From the IMG/VR virus record IMGVR_UViG_2684623189_000005: a stretch of DNA of 64,000 nucleotides; one strand, written 5' to 3'. Below are positions 27,001-36,286 of the stretch, piece after piece. This DNA is from a virus. Its lineage: Duplodnaviria > Heunggongvirae > Uroviricota > Caudoviricetes. The notes beneath the pieces were generated by a model. It saw nothing but the letters and a program-made list of their open reading frames with translations, searched no databases and was not told where the DNA came from. The first letter of the stretch is position 1. Each line of letters starts with the position of its first letter. Made by a program: the position numbers and the translations under genes.

Positions 27001-27326
27001 TATTGACCTCCGGTATTGCGGTACTGCTGTACCACTTCCAGTTTGTTATAAAGCGCGTCCAGTTTGGCCTCAATGACTGTCTGGCCACGGATATAATCCT
27101 CTCGACGGACATAATTCAGCGGTAAATCCGCTTTAAATCGCATAAATTCTTTTTCCAGCTCGCCCCAGTTGGAGGCGGATTGTTGCAGGGCCTGTTCAAG
27201 GGAGGCGAATCGTGCCGCCTGGCGTTCTTCTGTTTTACTGAACAACCATTTGGCGAGCCCTCCCACAAACCCCATGAAGGTGAGCAGAAAACTCACCACC
27301 GTCCAGAATTCAACCTGCAGTGTCAT
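27000..27326 (-). CDS. small membrane protein (lysis accessory?)
   Basis: 108 aa, one N-terminal TM helix; sits at the end of the lysis cassette. Confidence 0.4.
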   Translation of the reverse strand: MTLQVEFWTVVSFLLTFMGFVGGLAKWLFSKTEERQAARFASLEQALQQSASNWGELEKEFMRFKADLPLNYVRREDYIRGQTVIEAKLDALYNKLEVVQQYRNTGGQ

Positions 27327-27975
27327 TTCTGTAATCCTTCCCGTTCATCCAGTAACGCGTTTATCTGGTTCCGCCAGCGACGACATTGTCCTGCGTTGTC
27401 GATGATGTTGGCGAGAACGTCACGCTGGGAGACACCCGAATCGCGTAACCGGGTGTCAGTGGTTTCAGGTTGCCCGGTCGCTGTGCCAGAGCGGGTGCCA
27501 GCGGCGGCAACTGAGTCTGAATGACCGGTGTCGACGGATGCGTTGTCATATCCGAGTGCGGCGTTGTACTGGCGCACGAAACCGCGAGTAAACACGCACT
27601 CAATGGGATGGCTCTTACCTTTTTCATCAATCCAGCGCTGTGTGACATCGTTAATTTGCCCCTGTAGTTGTTTATTCCGGCTCTCCAGTTGAGCAATCTG
27701 CTCAAGATAACCGGCTTCAGCCCGCTGCCCGGCGGCCACCTGCTCCTGATACCGTCTGGCCCAGGCCCGCAGCGCAGCATTCTCAAGCGTTGCCTGCTCC
27801 GTTTTGTACGCGTCAAATGCTGACTGCAACTGACTGAGCGCGGTATCACCGTCACGCTTTGCAGAGTCATGACCACTTCTGTATCCCATGGCATACAGGC
27901 CGACCAGAAAGGCATTGATAAGAATGGCCAGCAGAATGCCGCGCCACGGCAGCTTTTTAATCAGATGCCACACAA
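27323..27975 (-). CDS. i-spanin (Rz-like), probable GTG start
   Basis: N-terminal TM (ILLAILINAFLVGLYAMG) followed by coiled-coil periplasmic domain; contains an embedded lipoprotein ORF. Confidence 0.6.
27361..27627 (-). CDS. o-spanin (Rz1-like lipoprotein) embedded in the i-spanin gene
   Basis: MKKVRAIPLSAC lipobox then proline-rich sequence, in an alternate frame inside the i-spanin. Confidence 0.55.
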   Translation of the reverse strand: MKKVRAIPLSACLLAVSCASTTPHSDMTTHPSTPVIQTQLPPLAPALAQRPGNLKPLTPGYAIRVSPSVTFSPTSSTTQDNVVAGGTR

Positions 27976-28697
27976 CTGCTGCCTCCCCATGTGAGATATC
28001 GCGGTGCCAGTTCGCGCAGGATGCGCTGCGGATAATGGCGGTTCTCCCGCCAGCTGGCCGCATTGCGTCCGGCATTCACCGTGGCGACATGTCCGAACCA
28101 GCGGGTGCTGTCCAGACCTTTCTGTGATGCAAGCCGCCTGTCCCGTTGTACCCAGCCCAGACCACCGTTATAGCCCGACAGTGTCATGGCCATACGCTCG
28201 CAGTCACTGGCGGCGCTGACACGCTGCCACAGCCAGCGGTCATAGCTGACCAGCGCCCGGATAGCCCATGCCGGATTAAACGGCTCACGACTGCTCTGCA
28301 TCGGTATCAACTGGCTTATCCAGTCGGCAGTGGCAGGCATGAACTGCGCCAGTCCCTGAGCGCCAGCCGGCGAGATCGCATCAGGTCGCCAGCCGCTTTC
28401 CTGATGCAGTTGCGCGGCGAAATCGGCCACCGGCGCAGACAGTCCCCATTCAAGCCGGGCATTACGGATCACATCATCGCGATACTGCAGCGCAGCCTGC
28501 GGAGGTTGTGCTGCGCATGCCTGGCTGAAAAAGCCGCCACACCAGAGCAACATTGCGACAAAGAATACCCATGCCATATGAACCAGAAAGGTCCCGGCGC
28601 GGACTGACAGGCGTTCGGTTCTGATGAAGACCCGAAAGGCTTCGAAAGCCAGTTTCAGGGACATGCATACAATCCAGGTGATCTGCGGCCAGTTCAT
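27957..28697 (-). CDS. endolysin, lytic transglycosylase (SLT domain), possibly signal-anchored
   Basis: ...LHQESGWRPDAISPAGAQGLAQFMPATA... SLT catalytic motif; hydrophobic N-terminus; true start may be the internal Met near 28577. Confidence 0.75.
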   Translation of the reverse strand: MNWPQITWIVCMSLKLAFEAFRVFIRTERLSVRAGTFLVHMAWVFFVAMLLWCGGFFSQACAAQPPQAALQYRDDVIRNARLEWGLSAPVADFAAQLHQESGWRPDAISPAGAQGLAQFMPATADWISQLIPMQSSREPFNPAWAIRALVSYDRWLWQRVSAASDCERMAMTLSGYNGGLGWVQRDRRLASQKGLDSTRWFGHVATVNAGRNAASWRENRHYPQRILRELAPRYLTWGGSSCVASD

Positions 28698-28699
28698 GA

Positions 28700-29050
28700 T
28701 TAAAGCCCCATCGCAACAGCCAGGCAGACCGCTGCAACAATCAGTGCACGGCGGATTAACGCAGCAGAAAACACCAGGTGAAGGCCGGTCTGTACCGGGA
28801 AACGCCCTTCAGCCATCAGCCTGTCGTCATGTTTCAGGTACTGACCGGGACGGGCTTTGGGGAAGAGCGAACGGTCAAGCCAGTAACCCAGCACTGCTGC
28901 CAGCGTGATGAGTGCCAGCTTGTAGATCACAACAGGCAGCTGCTGTGGTGAGACCAGAGCGATGGTGCCCAGCAACAGCACTGAGGTCAGCAGCCAGCCG
29001 CTGAGGCGAGGTTTTTTAACAGGGGGAATGAATTTTTTCAGGTTTTTCAT
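28700..29050 (-). CDS. putative holin (first gene of the late operon)
   Basis: Start at internal Met with a GGAG ribosome-binding site; multiple TM segments; directly upstream of the endolysin. Confidence 0.55.
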   Translation of the reverse strand: MKNLKKFIPPVKKPRLSGWLLTSVLLLGTIALVSPQQLPVVIYKLALITLAAVLGYWLDRSLFPKARPGQYLKHDDRLMAEGRFPVQTGLHLVFSAALIRRALIVAAVCLAVAMGL

Positions 29051-29180
29051 GTGTGTCTCCTCGTTTGGTGGAGACAGCATCACAAATACAGGGCGCAAAG
29101 GATTTTAAAGCGCGTTAAGAGAGCCGGGGATACGGGATGTGCAGGATAAACGATGAATTATTCACAGAGGAGAATACGAT
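29051..29180. promoter_or_regulatory. divergent intergenic region: candidate late (lysis) promoter and promoter of the P-loop gene
   Basis: 130-bp gap between divergently oriented genes. Confidence 0.35.
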
Positions 29181-29657
29181 ATGACGCACACACTGAATCC
29201 GGTCATCACTGTCACTGTGTCCGGTCCTGTGGGCAGCGGTAAAAGTTACGTACTGGCGCGGATAGAAGAGATGGTGAAACAGGAACTCGGAAACAGCGTC
29301 ATTGTCGATGCTGCTGACGTGGAGAATGAGCGCCGTATGAATGGCGAAGATCTGACGACCTGGCAGAAGCCACGGGGTGGCACAGTGATCAGGCTAGAGG
29401 AATACACGGGACAGGGCCTGTTGTCATACGGCGAGGAGCGTATCTGTCGGACGAATGAGCTGCTGGATGTTATATGCCCCACGGGCCGGCAACCCTGGAT
29501 ACTGCCCGATGCACTGCATGCCACCATTGCGGCACTGATGACAGTTTACGATCAGGAGCTGCTCATGAAGGAGTTACGTAAACTCACCGGTCAGCCAACA
29601 GAATGTTGTTCGTCTCCGAAGTACGGCAAACAGGAAAACGCCCCGGATAATCCTTAA
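29181..29657 (+). CDS. small P-loop NTPase (orphan)
   Basis: 158 aa; Walker A GPVGSGKS near the N-terminus, Walker-B-like VIVDAAD; preceded by a GAGGAG ribosome-binding site. Confidence 0.6.
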   Translation: MTHTLNPVITVTVSGPVGSGKSYVLARIEEMVKQELGNSVIVDAADVENERRMNGEDLTTWQKPRGGTVIRLEEYTGQGLLSYGEERICRTNELLDVICPTGRQPWILPDALHATIAALMTVYDQELLMKELRKLTGQPTECCSSPKYGKQENAPDNP

Positions 29658-29694
29658 GATACCTCCTGAACAGAAACAGCCCTGAAGGGCTGCA

Positions 29695-30285
29695 CTAAAA
29701 AAAGAAGTGTATTATTGCCCAAACAGCTATAACGATGATTCCCAGCCCAAGAGCCGATTCTAACTTATCTTTGGCAGTCATTTTTACTGTTGTAGCGGGC
29801 GCAGGTAAGTCTTGCTGCTGTGGATTTTCTGTTAGTTGTTTACGAGAAGAAACATCGCCCCTATTAGTTTGCTTCATGTTGATTACAGATGCGTTATGGG
29901 CATTATCAGCAGCAATTGACTGAAGTTTTACAAAAGTTTTTGAATCTGTTTTAGCCAGAAGTAACCTATTTCCCGTAAACATTGCCTTAAAAGTGATAGT
30001 TTTTTTCGTCTTGTCCGCCGCACCAAGCAAACCTCCAATGACCAACCCTGCACCACCAAAGATTAATCCACCAAGCAAACCTGCGCCTGCCGCCTTACCT
30101 ATACGGCTTTCCTCTTCACTATCCGCAAGTTCAATCGATAAAAGCTCTTCTTTCAGATTTAATACAATATTTTCAGGAAAGCCTTGTTTTGGTTTTTTGG
30201 CAAACACGATGGTACCGAACCCCATGCTTGCCCACCCTTTAGGAAAACTTCCTGCGATAACCTGAATCCCTGCCATGTTCATCAC
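29695..30285 (-). CDS. glycine-zipper membrane protein
   Basis: 196 aa; GKAAGAGLLGGLIFGGAGLVIGGLLGAA glycine-zipper helix plus C-terminal TM LGLGIIVIAVWAIIHFFF. Confidence 0.6.
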   Translation of the reverse strand: MMNMAGIQVIAGSFPKGWASMGFGTIVFAKKPKQGFPENIVLNLKEELLSIELADSEEESRIGKAAGAGLLGGLIFGGAGLVIGGLLGAADKTKKTITFKAMFTGNRLLLAKTDSKTFVKLQSIAADNAHNASVINMKQTNRGDVSSRKQLTENPQQQDLPAPATTVKMTAKDKLESALGLGIIVIAVWAIIHFFF

Positions 30286-30366
30286 CTTTTACATTAAAAT
30301 TTCAGAACGCAGCATGATGCCGCCTTTGTCTTTTTTCTGATCCCATGGTAATTCAGCTGTTATTTT

Positions 30367-31353
30367 CTATTTAAGAATAAAACGGTATTTACTGTCAGGA
30401 GTGCTTTGCTGATCAAGTAGCAGTGAACGACATGGAGCAGTCAAAACCCGAGCATAACTACCATCAGGGCTTATGTTAATGTAACAAACCTTGCCCTTAA
30501 CACTATAATTTTCGGGGACGGATGCCTTTGCTGATACAGTAAATTTAAGGGTATGCCAGCCCGTTTTTTGCTTGTAGCTTGAAACCGAATGGAAATCATC
30601 TGAGTACTTATTTAACCCTAGAAACATGCTGCGCAGTGCGGGGATGGAATCTTCTATTATTTTATCGTTGGTTTTAATGTTAAAAACGCTGGTTTCAGTA
30701 GAAGCTACTGCTTTGGCATTTCCCCATTTACCAGCGAACACAATCATTCCCACGAAAAATATTGCTACAAGAACTAACACTCCCCCCAACACTACTACAT
30801 GAGGCTTCCGGCTTCTGGTTGGTACAGTTGCGACTGATTTTGCACCGCTTTCCGATGGAGGTGATAGAGTTTTACTCTCATCACGAATATTCAGCAGATC
30901 ATCAAAATAACCAAACACAGCCTGCAACTGCTCTTTGTCTAGGCCTTTAAGATGGGTTGTACCGAAATGCTTCAGACAGTATCTGTCACGGTCAAGACGA
31001 TACCCAGGGTCAGTAAGCGCCATTATTTTGCTGACCAGAAGATTACAGTCCTTCATATTCTGGATCTGTTGTGCATATCTCTGAAGGATCTCAACCGCAC
31101 CATGATAATCAGCCGCAGTCATTTCATTAACTGTTTTGGTATTAAGTTTCGTGTGGATCGTCATCCATAGCTCGCGCTTACTTTCCCCCAGATCAACCAA
31201 TTCATCCATCAATCTGTGTAAATCGCGTTTTTGCAGCAACGAAATTGGTTGCTGGGCCGAAGGAAGTATGTCAGCAGAATAGTTATGAATGGTAACATCA
31301 CCGCTGACAACGTTACCCACATCCCCGTTAACTGTTTGCTTCTCTTTACTCAT
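30367..31353 (-). CDS. bitopic membrane protein apparently translationally coupled to the prophage repressor
   Basis: 328 aa; start overlaps the repressor stop; one central TM (VVVLGGVLVLVAIFFVGMIVFAG) between a cytoplasmic N-domain and a Cys-containing periplasmic C-domain. Confidence 0.6.
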   Translation of the reverse strand: MSKEKQTVNGDVGNVVSGDVTIHNYSADILPSAQQPISLLQKRDLHRLMDELVDLGESKRELWMTIHTKLNTKTVNEMTAADYHGAVEILQRYAQQIQNMKDCNLLVSKIMALTDPGYRLDRDRYCLKHFGTTHLKGLDKEQLQAVFGYFDDLLNIRDESKTLSPPSESGAKSVATVPTRSRKPHVVVLGGVLVLVAIFFVGMIVFAGKWGNAKAVASTETSVFNIKTNDKIIEDSIPALRSMFLGLNKYSDDFHSVSSYKQKTGWHTLKFTVSAKASVPENYSVKGKVCYINISPDGSYARVLTAPCRSLLLDQQSTPDSKYRFILK

Positions 31354-31811
31354 CTTCTCTTGGTATTTTTGTTCATTATTCCACCTGTTCCTATGGTTAC
31401 GTTACCTTTGATAACATTCCCCAGAACATCTCCATGAATAACCTGTTCCGCCCGTTCTCTGGAGGAGCCAGTAGTCAAGGCCGACAAAACTGAACCTTTG
31501 ACCTGTAATGGTGCCTGCCGGTAGTGCTGCAGTAACTCCATTTCATCACGTGATAAAGTTATACCTGATGACTCCCCGGTAAGAATGAACTGTACATTGG
31601 CCCCAATTCTTGCAAAGGCTGCAAGTAACTCACCTCCGGGAACAGCAACCCCTCGTTCATATTTCCCCCACATTTCTCTTGAAACGCCACAAAGGGCTGC
31701 TACTTCAGCCTGCTTGAGTGATAACCGCGAACGCTCAGCTTTGAACCGCGACGCGCAAAGAGAATCAAAATTCACATAAACCTCATTGACAATGAGAACA
31801 ATAGTTCTCAT
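31350..31811 (-). CDS. prophage repressor (XRE-family HTH)
   Basis: 153 aa; HTH ...LSLKQAEVAALCGVSREMWGKYERG...; divergent from the ner-like gene. Confidence 0.75.
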   Translation of the reverse strand: MRTIVLIVNEVYVNFDSLCASRFKAERSRLSLKQAEVAALCGVSREMWGKYERGVAVPGGELLAAFARIGANVQFILTGESSGITLSRDEMELLQHYRQAPLQVKGSVLSALTTGSSRERAEQVIHGDVLGNVIKGNVTIGTGGIMNKNTKRR

Positions 31812-31861
31812 AATCTATCACATATAAAACAAACATCATTGCATCAACAAAGGAGACAACA
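31812..31861. promoter_or_regulatory. 50-bp divergent repressor/early-operon control region
   Basis: Only non-coding sequence between the divergent repressor and ner-like genes. Confidence 0.5.
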
Positions 31862-32050
31862 ATGACTTCCGAACAAGTTAAAAATCTCTTCCGTCAGCGT
31901 GGTATCACGTTTACCCGCTGGGCCGAAGAACACGGCTACAGCCGCAATGAGGTCTATCGTGTTCTCAATGGACAGACCAAAGCTCGTTACGGCAAAGCCC
32001 ATGAAATTGCCGTAAAACTGGGATTAAAACCCACGTCAAATGCGGCATAA
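31862..32050 (+). CDS. ner: Ner-like DNA-binding protein
   Basis: 62 aa; ...ITFTRWAEEHGYSRNEVYRVLNGQ... Ner/Nlp-type helix; first gene of the early operon. Confidence 0.7.
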   Translation: MTSEQVKNLFRQRGITFTRWAEEHGYSRNEVYRVLNGQTKARYGKAHEIAVKLGLKPTSNAA

Positions 32051-32102
32051 ATTTTCCACATATGCAACAGGTTATCACATATTGCAAAAATGGAAATGTG
32101 AC

Positions 32103-32411
32103 ATGAGTAAAGTAAATATTTCCAGTTCTGGGACCCGCATCCTACGTGTACTCAAAGCTCTACGCGGTCATGCTCTGAACGGTGTTTCTAACGGTGAACT
32201 GGCATCAGCCCTGGGGGAGTCCCCAGCGAATATCAATCGAGCACTTAATACCCTTATTGAAGAGGGACTGGCCATGAAATTAGAGAACGGACGTTTCGCA
32301 CCGGGAATCCAGTTACTACAGATCGCCATGGCTCACAGTCACGAGATGGCGCGTGCACAGGATCGTATTAACGAAATCAACCAACGAGTTATTTCAGGTA
32401 GTCGTTTGTAA
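32103..32411 (+). CDS. putative winged-helix DNA-binding protein
   Basis: ~103 aa from internal Met; ...ILRVLKALRGHALNGVSNGELASALGESPANINRALNTLIEEGL... Confidence 0.5.
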   Translation: MSKVNISSSGTRILRVLKALRGHALNGVSNGELASALGESPANINRALNTLIEEGLAMKLENGRFAPGIQLLQIAMAHSHEMARAQDRINEINQRVISGSRL

Positions 32412-32421
32412 GGAGTAATCA

Positions 32422-33336
32422 ATGGGACGCACCAAATCACCCGTTAACACTGAACTGAATGTTGAGGTTCCGCTGTCAGATAACATCAATGTCAATTTGA
32501 ACGCTATGACACAGCATCGCATGGAAATTATGCAGCAGTTTGGTGATGGACTGCCTTATGAACGTGATCGCATTGTTCACGAAGCACGTTTTTATATGGC
32601 GCAGAGTGCTGAATCTATGCTGGAAGCGGGTAAGCGGCTGATCATCTTAAAAGAAAATGAGCCACACGGTGATTTTACAAACATTTTAGAAAATGAACTC
32701 GGACTTGCACCACAAGTTGCTCGCCGCATGATGCAAGCCAGTATGAAGTTTTTGGGAGAAGGTGATGAGCCAACAAAACGCTCAACGTTGAGCGTTTTGG
32801 GGAAAGCCAAACTGTACGACCTGATGGTTCTGGATAATGAAGAACTTGATGAATTGGCCGACGGCGGCACAGTTGCCGGCCTGACGCTTGACGACGTTGA
32901 TCGCATGTCAGTACGTGAATTGCGTCAGGCCCTGCGCGAAGCGCGCGAAACCAACGCAGCACAACAGCGCGTACTCGCTGACAAAAATGAAAAAATAGAC
33001 TCACTCTCCACCAGACTGGAGAAGAAATCCCGTATTCAGCCGCCTGAGCCTGATGAAGAGGTTAAGAAGCTGCGGGCGGAAGTGACAGCATTAGCGGTTG
33101 AGGCGGAATCTGCTATCGCCGTTCGACTGTCCAGCGCTTTTGAGACGCTGTGCGCATATTGTGCTGAAAACATGATTGATACCCCCAGAGACTTCATGGC
33201 AGGCCTGGTCTGTCAACTGGAAAGCACAGCGCGTAGCCTGCGCTCCACATTTGACCTGCCGGATGAGCCAACAGGCAATGCCGCGCCTTCATGGCTGACT
33301 GAGCCGACGCCACAGATTAACGGGCTGGAGGCATAA
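32422..33336 (+). CDS. hypothetical early protein with coiled-coil segment
   Basis: 304-aa ORF between ner and the transposase; no family recognised with certainty. Confidence 0.5.
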   Translation: MGRTKSPVNTELNVEVPLSDNINVNLNAMTQHRMEIMQQFGDGLPYERDRIVHEARFYMAQSAESMLEAGKRLIILKENEPHGDFTNILENELGLAPQVARRMMQASMKFLGEGDEPTKRSTLSVLGKAKLYDLMVLDNEELDELADGGTVAGLTLDDVDRMSVRELRQALREARETNAAQQRVLADKNEKIDSLSTRLEKKSRIQPPEPDEEVKKLRAEVTALAVEAESAIAVRLSSAFETLCAYCAENMIDTPRDFMAGLVCQLESTARSLRSTFDLPDEPTGNAAPSWLTEPTPQINGLEA

Positions 33337-35119: not shown

Positions 35120-36286
35120 ATGCTGGTACTGAAGCAGCAACTGAAAGAGGCCCGTATTCCACAGGCGGTGGTGGCGAGAGCTGTCGATGTTTCTGAGGCC
35201 ACGCTGGCCCAGATTGTGAATCATAACGCGTGGCCCCGCACCAGCCCCGGAGAAGTGCGCCGGCGTCTTGCGTCCTGGCTGGAAAGTCAGGGGATTGATA
35301 CAACGAAGAGTTTTGATGCTGTACAGGGCGCGGCCACGCCCCGTACAGCGGGTACCACAGATAAAACGAGCCTCAGTGAGGAAGAGAATATGTTACTCAA
35401 AAAACAGGTGTTATTTCCAGCAACCAAAAAAGCGTTTGGTCTTTTCCGTGACCCGTTCGCCGACGAAGCCATGCAGGGTTCTGATGATGTGTTCACCACT
35501 CCGGACATTCGCTACGTGCGTGAGGCGCTGTACCAGACAGCCCGTCATGGTGGGTTTATGGCCGTCATCGGTGAGTCCGGTGCGGGTAAATCCACGCTGC
35601 GCCGTGACCTGACTGAACGTATCAACCGCGAGAATGCGCCGGTGATTGTTATCGAGCCATACATCATCGCTATGGAAGACAACGATGTGAAAGGGAAAAC
35701 CCTGAAGGCAGCAGCGATTGCCGAAGCCATTATCAGTACCATCGCACCACTGGAAAGCATCAGACGCAGTCAGGACGCCCGCTTTCGCCAGCTGCATCGC
35801 GTCCTGAAAGACAGCAGCCAGGCGGGGTTCAGCCACGTTCTGGTGATTGAGGAGGCCCACAGTCTGCCCATTCCGACACTGAAACACCTCAAACGCTTTT
35901 TTGAGCTGGAGTCCGGTTTCAAAAAACTGCTGTCCATCGTGCTGATTGGCCAGCCGGAACTGGCGACAAAACTGTCTGAACGCAATATGGAAGTCCGTGA
36001 AGTCGTTCAGCGCTGTGAGGTGGTCGAACTTCTGCCTCTGGACAATAACCTTGAAGAGTTTCTGACGTTCAAACTGCAACGGGCCGGTAAACAACTGACG
36101 GACATTATGGACGCCAGCGCAGTGGATGCCATACGTGCCCGCCTGAGCAATCCGGGAAGTCATCGTAAAAATATGGTCAGCCTGCTGTATCCGCTGGCCG
36201 TCAGTAACCTGGTAATAGCCGCCATGAATCTGGCCGCTGAAATCGGGGTTCCACAGGTCAACGCTGACGTTGTCAAAGGGGTTTAA
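35120..36286 (+). CDS. transposition ATPase (MuB/TniB-like AAA+)
   Basis: Walker A GESGAGKST, Walker B HVLVIEEAH; GAGGAGGG ribosome-binding site before the ATG at 35120. Confidence 0.8.
   Translation: MLVLKQQLKEARIPQAVVARAVDVSEATLAQIVNHNAWPRTSPGEVRRRLASWLESQGIDTTKSFDAVQGAATPRTAGTTDKTSLSEEENMLLKKQVLFPATKKAFGLFRDPFADEAMQGSDDVFTTPDIRYVREALYQTARHGGFMAVIGESGAGKSTLRRDLTERINRENAPVIVIEPYIIAMEDNDVKGKTLKAAAIAEAIISTIAPLESIRRSQDARFRQLHRVLKDSSQAGFSHVLVIEEAHSLPIPTLKHLKRFFELESGFKKLLSIVLIGQPELATKLSERNMEVREVVQRCEVVELLPLDNNLEEFLTFKLQRAGKQLTDIMDASAVDAIRARLSNPGSHRKNMVSLLYPLAVSNLVIAAMNLAAEIGVPQVNADVVKGV

What the first reader, a model, noticed from the sequence alone, without database searches (positions are those of the whole stretch)
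29181..29657. Orphan small P-loop NTPase facing the repressor module
A 158-aa protein with a canonical Walker A (GPVGSGKS) and a Walker-B-like VIVDAAD sits alone between the late operon start and the membrane module, convergent with the latter. Its size fits a nucleotide or nucleic-acid kinase, and it could be a sensor or partner for the membrane proteins.
Basis: partly seen in the sequence, partly recalled or inferred. Interest (0 to 1): 0.45.

Follow-up and report, generated by a model that had tools for sequence, protein, structure and literature searches.

The report
Phage mini P-loop protein beside holin
The gene is real and its ATP-binding-type motif is conserved, but it encodes only a ~75-residue fragment-sized version of that fold, belongs to an uncharacterised phage family found next to lysis/DNA-packaging genes, and is not a kinase nor a partner of the neighbouring membrane genes.

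Summary
The 158-aa ORF (29181-29657, +) exists as described, in a BcepMu-type transposable prophage of E. coli. It is under purifying selection (dN/dS 0.12-0.31). Its Walker A (GPVGSGKS) is essentially invariant in 52 divergent relatives. 'VIVDAAD' is not the conserved acidic element; E50 and E74 (end of strand 'TVIRLEE') are.

Linkage to the membrane genes is refuted. The gene is in 571 of 5426 complete E. coli genomes (~90% of these prophages), always divergent from the holin; only 96 have the membrane cassette. GC drops from ~56% to ~41% at its 3' end.

In other phages the module sits beside HNH-TerS-TerL or a spanin, or between thymidylate synthase and DHFR.

Best reading: an oligomerising or partner-dependent nucleotide-binding mini-module serving a late DNA or nucleotide-related function. 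The mechanism is unproven.

The parts
29181..29657 (+). Target CDS, 158 aa, member of PHROG 3787 (function unknown). This is the allele ending in '...PDNP'.
   Evidence: ORF list and sequence; phrog_3787 match at E 2e-107; 100% identical to E. coli 504838 WP_000149906.1; dN/dS 0.24-0.31.
29167..29172 (+). Shine-Dalgarno GAGGAG, 8 nt before the ATG.
   Evidence: Read directly from the sequence.
29051..29180 (.). 130-bp divergent intergenic region between the holin start and the target start. It presumably holds the late promoter (- strand) and the target's own promoter.
   Evidence: Coordinates. No sigma-70-like site was found here. The holin-proximal half is conserved even in a prophage that carries a different gene in the slot. 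Promoter function is inferred, not shown.
29193..29408 (+). Conserved N-terminal module (residues ~5-76): strand, Walker A, helix, strand, 'ER' loop with W61/P64, Walker-B-like strand.
   Evidence: It is the only part shared with distant relatives. pLDDT exceeds 90 over residues 10-70 with the deep alignment. dN/dS is 0.12-0.14.
29223..29246 (+). Walker A / P-loop GPVGSGKS (residues 15-22).
   Evidence: G20 52/52, K21 51/52, S/T22 48/52 plus 4 Asn; PDB profile hits on P-loop units of ABC, kinase, UreG, PilT and designed P-loop proteins.
29328..29333 (+). Conserved E50-R51 after strand 2.
   Evidence: E50 45/51; position 51 is R in 26 and K in 14 sequences.
29382..29402 (+). Walker-B-like strand TVIRLEE (residues 68-74) ending in the conserved E74.
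   Evidence: E74 50/52, L72 41/52, T68 40/52. Standalone homologues of 70-75 aa end exactly at this Glu.
29493..29591 (+). C-terminal helical motif (residues ~105-137, LPDALHATIAALMTVYDQELLMKELRKL), shared with only a subset of relatives.
   Evidence: Present at the C-terminus of P0034, P0036, P0057 and P0062. Predicted helices at 110-122 and 125-136. Absent from the 182-aa alleles.
29636..29650 (.). Recombination breakpoint between alleles (codons ~152-157). Beyond it, the tail, stop codon and downstream DNA belong to the variable cassette.
   Evidence: Megablast alignments to other alleles end at query positions 537-547 of 29100-29700 and at 187-201 of 29450-29950. The protein alignment diverges after '...KYGKQE'.
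29676..29693 (-). GC-rich hairpin followed by a T-rich tail on the - strand, between the convergent genes. It is a terminator-like site for the repressor/membrane-gene transcript.
   Evidence: Terminator scan. Function is inferred.

Best explanation
The gene encodes a phage-specific 'mini P-loop' protein. Its only widely conserved part is a ~75-residue N-terminal module made of strand 1, Walker A (GxxGxGK[S/T]), helix 1, strand 2, a loop with conserved E50, W61 and P64, and strand 3 ending in E74 (Walker-B-like). That amounts to the phosphate- and Mg-binding half of a P-loop NTPase, without the remaining strands or any substrate or lid domain.

I infer that it binds a nucleotide (tri)phosphate with Mg. 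Because it is too small to form the fold alone, I infer that it works as a homo-oligomer or docked on a partner ATPase or nuclease, with the variable C-terminal helices acting as the adaptor.

In this E. coli BcepMu-type prophage it is a near-core backbone gene, transcribed divergently from the first late gene (the holin). In other phages the same module sits beside HNH-TerS-TerL, beside a spanin, or between thymidylate synthase and DHFR. The most likely role is therefore an accessory, nucleotide-dependent function in late DNA or nucleotide handling (packaging or DNA-end processing), not membrane signalling.

Shown: the gene is real and under selection, its motifs are conserved, the family is modular, the genomic distribution is as stated, and there is no linkage to the membrane genes. 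Inferred: nucleotide binding, oligomerisation, and the late or packaging-related role.
For: - Motif conservation across 52 relatives: G20, K21, S/T22, E50 and E74.
- Profile hits to the P-loop unit of many NTPase classes, and to designed minimal P-loop proteins 6c2u and 9jix.
- An exhaustive search of 1.84 billion representatives finds 67 relatives that share only positions ~1-75, with total lengths from ~70 to 364 aa.
- Standalone 70-75-aa genes end at the conserved Glu.
- Purifying selection is strongest on the module.
- The module is modelled with pLDDT above 90, and only helices are predicted after residue 76.
- Backbone-like GC of 55-57%, and presence in 571 of 628 holin-positive genomes.
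- Contexts: HNH | module | TerS | TerL (L025, L021); spanin | module | HNH | TerS | TerL (L026); module ... HNH-TerS-TerL (L029). At least three unrelated TerL lineages are involved.
- Further contexts: thyA | module | frd in Vibrio phage 1.101.O, and directly upstream of an AAA protein in MW202423.
- Published precedent: 40-residue strand-(P-loop)-helix polypeptides bind NTPs and nucleic acids through oligomers (bioRxiv 10.1101/2020.07.30.228619).
Against: - There is no biochemical evidence of any kind.
- The confident AF2 model shows no DSSP strands in the module and has no fold match, so even the mini-sheet is unverified.
- Four relatives have GKN instead of GK[ST], and 182-aa alleles lack residues 53-124 including E74, so hydrolysis cannot be universal.
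- The contexts are heterogeneous (packaging junction, nucleotide metabolism, early region, jumbo phages), and many of the packaging-adjacent loci belong to one broad phage lineage.
- The lysis/terminase junction is also a classic accessory-gene hot spot (my own knowledge, not tested here), so position alone does not prove a packaging role.
- About 10% of the E. coli prophages lack the gene, and one carries another domain in its place, so it is dispensable.
- No promoter was identified and expression timing is unknown.
Confidence: 0.4

Rival explanations
1. It is an accessory anti-defence or host-takeover protein. A constant small N-module (nucleotide or signal binder, or a decoy of host ATPase P-loops) is joined to rapidly swapped C-terminal target-binding domains, and the gene sits in a cargo hot spot.
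For: C-terminal domains are extensively shuffled on a constant N-module, and one such C-domain occurs alone in the same slot. The gene borders the hypervariable repressor-to-holin cargo region. It is dispensable in ~10% of the prophages. The protein is small and acidic, pI 5.0.
Against: There is no PADLOC or other hit to any known defence or anti-defence family. GC is backbone-like rather than cargo-like. The gene is near-core and under steady purifying selection rather than diversifying. The conserved Walker-B-like Glu points to Mg-nucleotide chemistry rather than simple sequestration.
Confidence: 0.2
2. It is a non-catalytic phosphate-binding or scaffold module. The P-loop is kept only as a ligand-binding or structural element (phospho-ligand, nucleic acid or protein), with no NTP hydrolysis.
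For: The module is too small for a canonical active site. GKN variants and internally deleted alleles persist. One relative fuses the module to a peptidoglycan-binding domain, which would act where ATP is absent. Designed minimal P-loops bind various phospho-ligands.
Against: E74, in the position of a Walker B acid, is kept in 50/52 relatives and E50 in 45/51, which is more constraint than simple phosphate binding needs. The acidic pI argues against binding the nucleic-acid backbone. The PG_binding fusion is a single metagenomic protein.
Confidence: 0.2
3. One reading: it is a small nucleotide or nucleic-acid kinase that senses for, or partners with, the two adjacent membrane proteins.
For: The Walker A is real. 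Weak sub-threshold hits include guanylate, uridine and cytidylate kinases. The gene is physically adjacent to, and convergent with, the membrane genes in this window.
Against: The kinase hits score 12-13 bits against cut-offs of 180-263 and cover only the P-loop. There is no NMP-binding or lid region, and no fold match. Only 96 of 571 carriers have the membrane cassette, other cassettes replace it, and the 328-aa membrane gene occurs without the target. GC changes sharply at the boundary. The membrane genes follow the repressor on the same strand, the first overlapping its stop codon, up to a terminator-like hairpin.
Confidence: 0.04
4. It is a truncated, decaying remnant of the 247-aa gene. 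The window allele would have lost its C-terminal 90 residues when the membrane cassette was inserted, leaving it non-functional.
For: Most E. coli alleles are 243-247 aa, and the homology break lies at codon ~152, where the cassette begins. Many short fragments exist in databases.
Against: 158-aa alleles form several diverged clusters (83-97% identity, hundreds of member sequences). Relatives from other genera end naturally just after the same helix motif (P0034, P0036, P0057, P0062; also the 141-aa alleles). dN/dS is 0.24-0.31 including comparisons with the window allele. The N-module and the helical motif are intact.
Confidence: 0.06

Closest known systems
PHROG 3787 (phage protein family, unknown function); NCBI WP_000149906.1, auto-named 'ABC transporter ATPase'
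   Same: Direct membership: full-length HMM match at E 2e-107. All 36 relatives tested match the same PHROG. The window protein is identical to an annotated E. coli protein.
   Different: Nothing is known about the family. The PGAP name is not supported: no ABC signature motif, and ABC_tran scores 13.6 bits against a cut-off of 25.
Canonical P-loop NTPases (ABC ATPases, NMP kinases, UreG/CobW GTPases, PilT/AAA+)
   Same: The strand-GxxGxGK[S/T]-helix unit, followed by a second strand and a hydrophobic strand ending in an acidic residue. The profile aligns to this unit in many classes.
Engineered minimal P-loop proteins (Tawfik-lab 'P-loop prototypes', PDB 6c2u 'phosphate-loop protein'; de novo ATPase PL2x4_2, PDB 9jix)
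   Same: Among the best PDB sequence matches to the module: 9jix at E 1e-4 and 6c2u at E 8e-4. They show that a strand-P-loop-helix element in a tiny protein can bind NTPs when it oligomerises.
   Different: Those are artificial and idealised, and (from my own recollection, not checked here) generally basic. This is a natural, acidic phage protein family with an added conserved ER/W..P loop and a Walker-B-like strand. No activity has been shown for it.
HNH endonuclease accessory proteins of HK97-type packaging modules (gp74-type; from my own knowledge of Kala et al. 2014, not checked here)
   Same: A small accessory gene embedded beside TerS/TerL. The module gene lies directly next to such HNH genes in L021, L025, L026 and L029.
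   Different: There is no sequence or fold relationship. The window phage is Mu-like and no HNH gene is seen near its terminase genes. A packaging role for the module is only a positional inference.
BcepMu gp18-gp20 region (repressor-to-holin interval of the type phage)
   Same: The same genomic interval in the same virus genus. It is a variable set of small genes between the repressor and the holin.
   Different: BcepMu has no opposite-strand gene there, and tblastn of the window protein against the phage collection (E up to 1e-5) matched only PhiKM, not BcepMu. The E. coli, Salmonella and Citrobacter lineage acquired the gene separately.

Membership tests
P-loop NTPase (complete catalytic domain) | Walker A GxxxxGK[S/T] between a strand and a helix | tested here: met
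   GPVGSGKS at residues 15-22, conserved in 48-52 of 52 relatives; profile hits to P-loop units in the PDB.
P-loop NTPase (complete catalytic domain) | Walker B: a hydrophobic strand ending in Asp or Glu | tested here: inconclusive
TVIRLEE with E74 conserved 50/52 fits by sequence. Its position in a sheet next to strand 1 is not verified, because the two models disagree on the strands.
P-loop NTPase (complete catalytic domain) | Three-layer alpha/beta core with about five parallel strands (at least ~140 aa) | tested here: not met
ABC transporter ATPase (PGAP name) | ABC signature LSGGQ, Q-loop and H-loop; Pfam ABC_tran at or above 25 bits | tested here: not met
   No [LFY]SGG[QE] motif. ABC_tran scores 13.6 bits over residues 4-49 only. 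NCBIfam ABC models score 11-15 bits against cut-offs of 266-875.
KAP family NTPase (name on some fragments) | Pfam KAP_NTPase at or above 20 bits; large P-loop domain with inserted transmembrane helices | tested here: not met
   14.6 bits over residues 4-43 only. The protein is 158 aa, and I saw no long hydrophobic stretch on reading the sequence; no transmembrane predictor was run.
   Guanylate and uridine kinase models score 12-13 bits against cut-offs of 180-263. PDB kinase hits cover about 25 residues of the P-loop only. No fold match.
PHROG 3787 | Significant full-length match to the family HMM | tested here: met
   E 2.1e-107, residues 1-157 on profile positions 1-157 of 242. All 36 relatives tested match it.
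Functional module together with the two membrane genes | Conserved co-occurrence and co-orientation across genomes | tested here: not met
   571 genomes carry the gene, 96 have the junction with the 196-aa gene, and 126 have the 328-aa gene. Alternative cassettes replace the membrane genes, and the membrane gene occurs without the target. The orientation is convergent, and GC breaks at the boundary.
Known anti-phage defence proteins (PADLOC) | Significant hit to a defence-system HMM | tested here: not met
   The best hit is E 0.007 at 13 bits, covering the P-loop only.
Moron (independently acquired cargo gene) | Deviant base composition, own promoter and terminator, patchy distribution | tested here: inconclusive
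   GC matches the backbone and the gene is in ~90% of the lineage, which argues against. However, it is on the opposite strand to its neighbours, borders the cargo region, and is absent from BcepMu. No promoter was found.

The most novel reading that the evidence does not exclude
The family represents natural, free-standing 'half P-loop' proteins of 70-75 residues, carrying a Walker A and a Walker-B-like Glu and nothing else. They would become functional nucleotide-binding or hydrolysing units only by self-assembly or by completing the fold on a partner. In that case they would be living counterparts of the engineered P-loop prototypes used to model the origin of NTPases, and phages would use them as a previously unrecognised accessory component of the lysis/packaging (HNH-terminase) gene block.
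Probability: 0.2. Interest if true: 0.7.

Novelty: new variant of a known kind. Interest (0 to 1): 0.4.

Why it matters
Locally, this corrects a misleading automatic annotation ('ABC transporter ATPase' or 'KAP NTPase') carried by a gene present in about 10% of complete E. coli genomes. It also separates that gene from the repressor-linked membrane cassette, which is the more plausible lysogenic-conversion or exclusion unit.

More generally, suppose the 70-75-residue Walker A/B module binds or hydrolyses nucleotides as an oligomer. It would then be a natural minimal P-loop protein, relevant to how the most abundant enzyme fold could work, and arise, from fragments. Its recurrent placement next to HNH-TerS-TerL would also flag an unstudied accessory factor of phage late functions. 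Both ideas can be tested directly with small, easily expressed proteins.

Tried and rejected
- **Family libraries.** Pfam, NCBIfam and PADLOC gave only sub-threshold, P-loop-only hits.
- **First AF2 run.** The shallow alignment gave an unusable model, pLDDT 51.
- **Related-locus searches.** The full module alignment (A5) and subfamily A9 were too diverse to back-translate. Subfamily A10 found nothing in viral contigs and only two short metagenome contigs.
- **Deposited phage genomes.** tblastn with distant module sequences found only three records.
- **Literature.** A search on BcepMu-like E. coli prophages found no study of this gene.
- **Promoter scan.** No sigma-70-like site was found for the target, so expression timing is undetermined.
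- **Rejected hypotheses.** Kinase; ABC or KAP ATPase; partner of the membrane genes; chance ORF or antisense shadow (dN/dS in the + frame); simple pseudogene truncation.

Full report
**1. The observation**

The ORF at 29181-29657 (+) is real: 158 aa, an ATG start, and GAGGAG 8 nt upstream. GPVGSGKS occupies residues 15-22, after a hydrophobic strand and before a helix. A Walker A pattern appears in only 0.55% of shuffles of this protein. What rules out chance is conservation: among 52 relatives down to ~25% identity, G20 is invariant, K21 is 51/52 and S/T22 is 48/52. Comparison with other alleles gives dN/dS of 0.24-0.31 for the gene and 0.12-0.14 for the first 76 codons, at dS 0.27-0.46. It is therefore a selected protein and not a shadow of the antisense ORF. 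The conserved acids are E50 and E74, the latter ending the strand TVIRLEE.

**2. The setting**

The window is a BcepMu-type (Bcepmuvirus) transposable prophage of E. coli, 100% identical over the locus to strain 504838 and ~93% identical to phage PhiKM.

- Leftward on the - strand run the holin (28700-29050), SLT endolysin, Rz-like spanin, two small genes, a DUF3486 protein (Mu gp27 family, TerS-like in BcepMu's annotation), a terminase-sized ORF and the portal.
- To the right on the - strand lie the HTH repressor (31350-31811), a 328-aa single-pass membrane protein with an Flk_N-like N-domain that overlaps the repressor's stop codon, and a 196-aa membrane protein. A terminator-like hairpin at 29676-29693 follows them. 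I read these three genes as one transcription unit; that is an inference from strand, overlap and the hairpin.
- Further right on the + strand are the Ner-like gene, an IclR-type HTH gene, a DUF3102 gene and the DDE transposase.

**3. Not a partner of the membrane genes**

| Feature | Complete E. coli genomes (of 5426) |
|---|---|
| Holin (marks the prophage lineage) | 628 |
| Target gene, always chromosomal | 571 |
| Window-type junction (target 3' end plus 196-aa gene) | 96 |
| 328-aa membrane gene | 126 |

Thirty of the 126 genomes with the 328-aa gene lack the 196-aa gene. In the one of these I examined, strain 503025, the target is also missing. Other alleles of the target are followed by quite different cassettes: small ORFs plus a Dam methylase, or a 164-aa ORF plus Dam. 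Homology between alleles breaks at codons ~152-157. GC falls from 55-57% in the target, the same as the late genes, to 39-45% exactly at its 3' end. The target is thus a near-core backbone gene fixed next to the holin. The membrane genes are one optional cassette of the repressor-to-holin cargo interval, which in BcepMu itself holds gp18-gp20 and no opposite-strand gene.

**4. What the protein is**

It matches PHROG 3787 (unknown function) at E 2e-107. Pfam, NCBIfam and PADLOC give only sub-threshold hits (at most 18 bits), all restricted to residues ~4-55. These hits are spread over unrelated P-loop classes: AAA_30, AAA_22, KAP, CobW, ABC and kinases. It has no ABC signature motif.

E. coli homologues come in 247-, 158-, 141- and 182-aa forms, and the 182-aa form lacks residues 53-124. 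An exhaustive profile search of 1.84 billion representative proteins found only 67 relatives. The distant ones share only positions ~1-75 and range from ~70 to 364 aa. Several independent viral contigs encode the module alone, as 70-75-aa proteins that stop at the conserved Glu. A ~107-aa ORF that replaces the target in strain 503025 is homologous to the C-terminal domain fused to the module in Salmonella relatives, so domains are shuffled at this locus.

The conclusion is a genuine Walker A unit plus a Walker-B-like strand in a module half the size of a complete NTPase domain. It is not assignable to any class, and it is neither a kinase nor an ABC or KAP ATPase.

**5. Contexts elsewhere**

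- L025: HNH endonuclease | 75-aa module | TerS | TerL.
- L021: HNH | 70-aa module | two small ORFs | a TerS-sized ORF | TerL.
- L026: Rz-like spanin | 161-aa module protein | HNH | TerS | TerL.
- L029: module protein | small ORF | HNH | TerS | TerL.
- About nine or ten of 21 non-redundant viral loci show this packaging-adjacent arrangement. Their TerL proteins fall into at least three unrelated lineages, although most belong to one broad group.
- In Vibrio phage 1.101.O, the standalone module lies between thymidylate synthase and dihydrofolate reductase.
- In a Manatee Spring siphovirus, it precedes an AAA-domain protein in the early region.
- It also occurs in jumbo-phage contigs, and in Salmonella, Citrobacter and Pseudomonas genomes.
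- One metagenomic protein fuses it to a peptidoglycan-binding domain.

The common theme is DNA or nucleotide handling and the lysis/packaging junction, which matches its place at the head of the late operon in the window. It is not a membrane function.

**6. Mechanism**

What is shown: a selected, near-core, modular phage protein whose conserved core carries K21, S22, E50 and E74.

What I infer: the core binds Mg-nucleotide or another phosphate ligand. Because it is too small to fold as a P-loop domain alone, it acts as a homo-oligomer or on a partner, with the variable C-terminus as adaptor. The engineered 40-residue strand-(P-loop)-helix peptides that bind NTPs through oligomers are the precedent. 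The biological role I favour, at modest confidence, is an accessory nucleotide-dependent function in late DNA handling.

Weak points are as follows. There is no biochemistry. The two AF2 models disagree on the strands. GKN variants and internally deleted alleles exist. The contexts are heterogeneous. Expression timing is unknown.

**7. Novelty and score**

The family is already catalogued (PHROG 3787, RefSeq proteins) but is uncharacterised and mis-named. Recognising it as a ~75-residue Walker A/B mini-module with shuffled C-termini makes it a new variant of a known kind, not a new system. Interest is moderate (0.4). The minimal-P-loop aspect and the recurring terminase-side position remain worth a bench test.

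Noticed in passing
window 31350-31811 (-) and 30367-31353 (-): The repressor's C-terminal tail (RAEQVIHGDVLGNVIKGNVTI) repeats at the N-terminus of the next gene, the 328-aa membrane protein (KEKQTVNGDVGNVVSGDVTI): 52% identity over 21 aa. The two genes overlap by ATGA. The membrane protein's N-domain resembles Flk_N (NCBIfam Flk, E 3e-12).
   Followed up: partly
window 29650-32500: A sharp compositional island: GC is 39-45% across the two membrane genes, the repressor and the Ner/IclR-like genes, against 55-64% in the late genes and the target. The boundary falls exactly at the target's stop codon.
   Followed up: partly
L005 2160-2483 (+) (E. coli 503025, NZ_CP025892.1): An unannotated ~107-aa ORF occupies the holin-adjacent slot in place of the target. 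It is 41-42% identical (E about 1e-10 to 1e-11) to the C-terminal domain fused to the P-loop module in Salmonella proteins P0058 and P0041.
   Followed up: yes
L037 3004-3252 (+) (Vibrio phage 1.101.O, NVP1101O_043): A standalone 82-aa module gene lies directly between thymidylate synthase and dihydrofolate reductase.
   Followed up: partly
L025 5568-8651; L021 5522-9010; L026 5522-9273: The module gene is embedded between the HNH endonuclease and TerS (L025, L021), or between an Rz-like spanin and HNH-TerS-TerL (L026).
   Followed up: yes
proteins P0028, P0030 (182 aa, E. coli): These alleles of the target lack residues 53-124, including the Walker-B-like strand, but keep residues 1-52 and the 90-aa C-terminal extension. 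One of the two clusters has 58 member sequences.
   Followed up: no
protein P0087 (159 aa, metagenomic): A fusion of an N-terminal peptidoglycan-binding domain (PG_binding_1, E 5e-15) with the mini P-loop module at the C-terminus.
   Followed up: no
window 27361-27915 (-): An out-of-frame ORF embedded in the Rz-like spanin gene (27326-28075) has a signal-like start (MKKVRAIPLSACLLAVSC) and a proline-rich tail. It probably corresponds to an embedded Rz1-type o-spanin, as BcepMu gp24 does.
   Followed up: no
RefSeq annotations of homologues: PGAP naming is inconsistent for one gene family: 'ABC transporter ATPase' for the 158- and 141-aa alleles, 'KAP family NTPase' for a fragment, and 'hypothetical protein' for the 243-aa alleles.
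   Followed up: yes
window 63487 (+): A third Walker-A-like string (GQVAYGKS) lies in a long open frame near the window's end. The only other one in the window is GESGAGKS at 35570, which lies in the ExeA-family (MuB-like) ATPase gene that starts just after the transposase.
   Followed up: no
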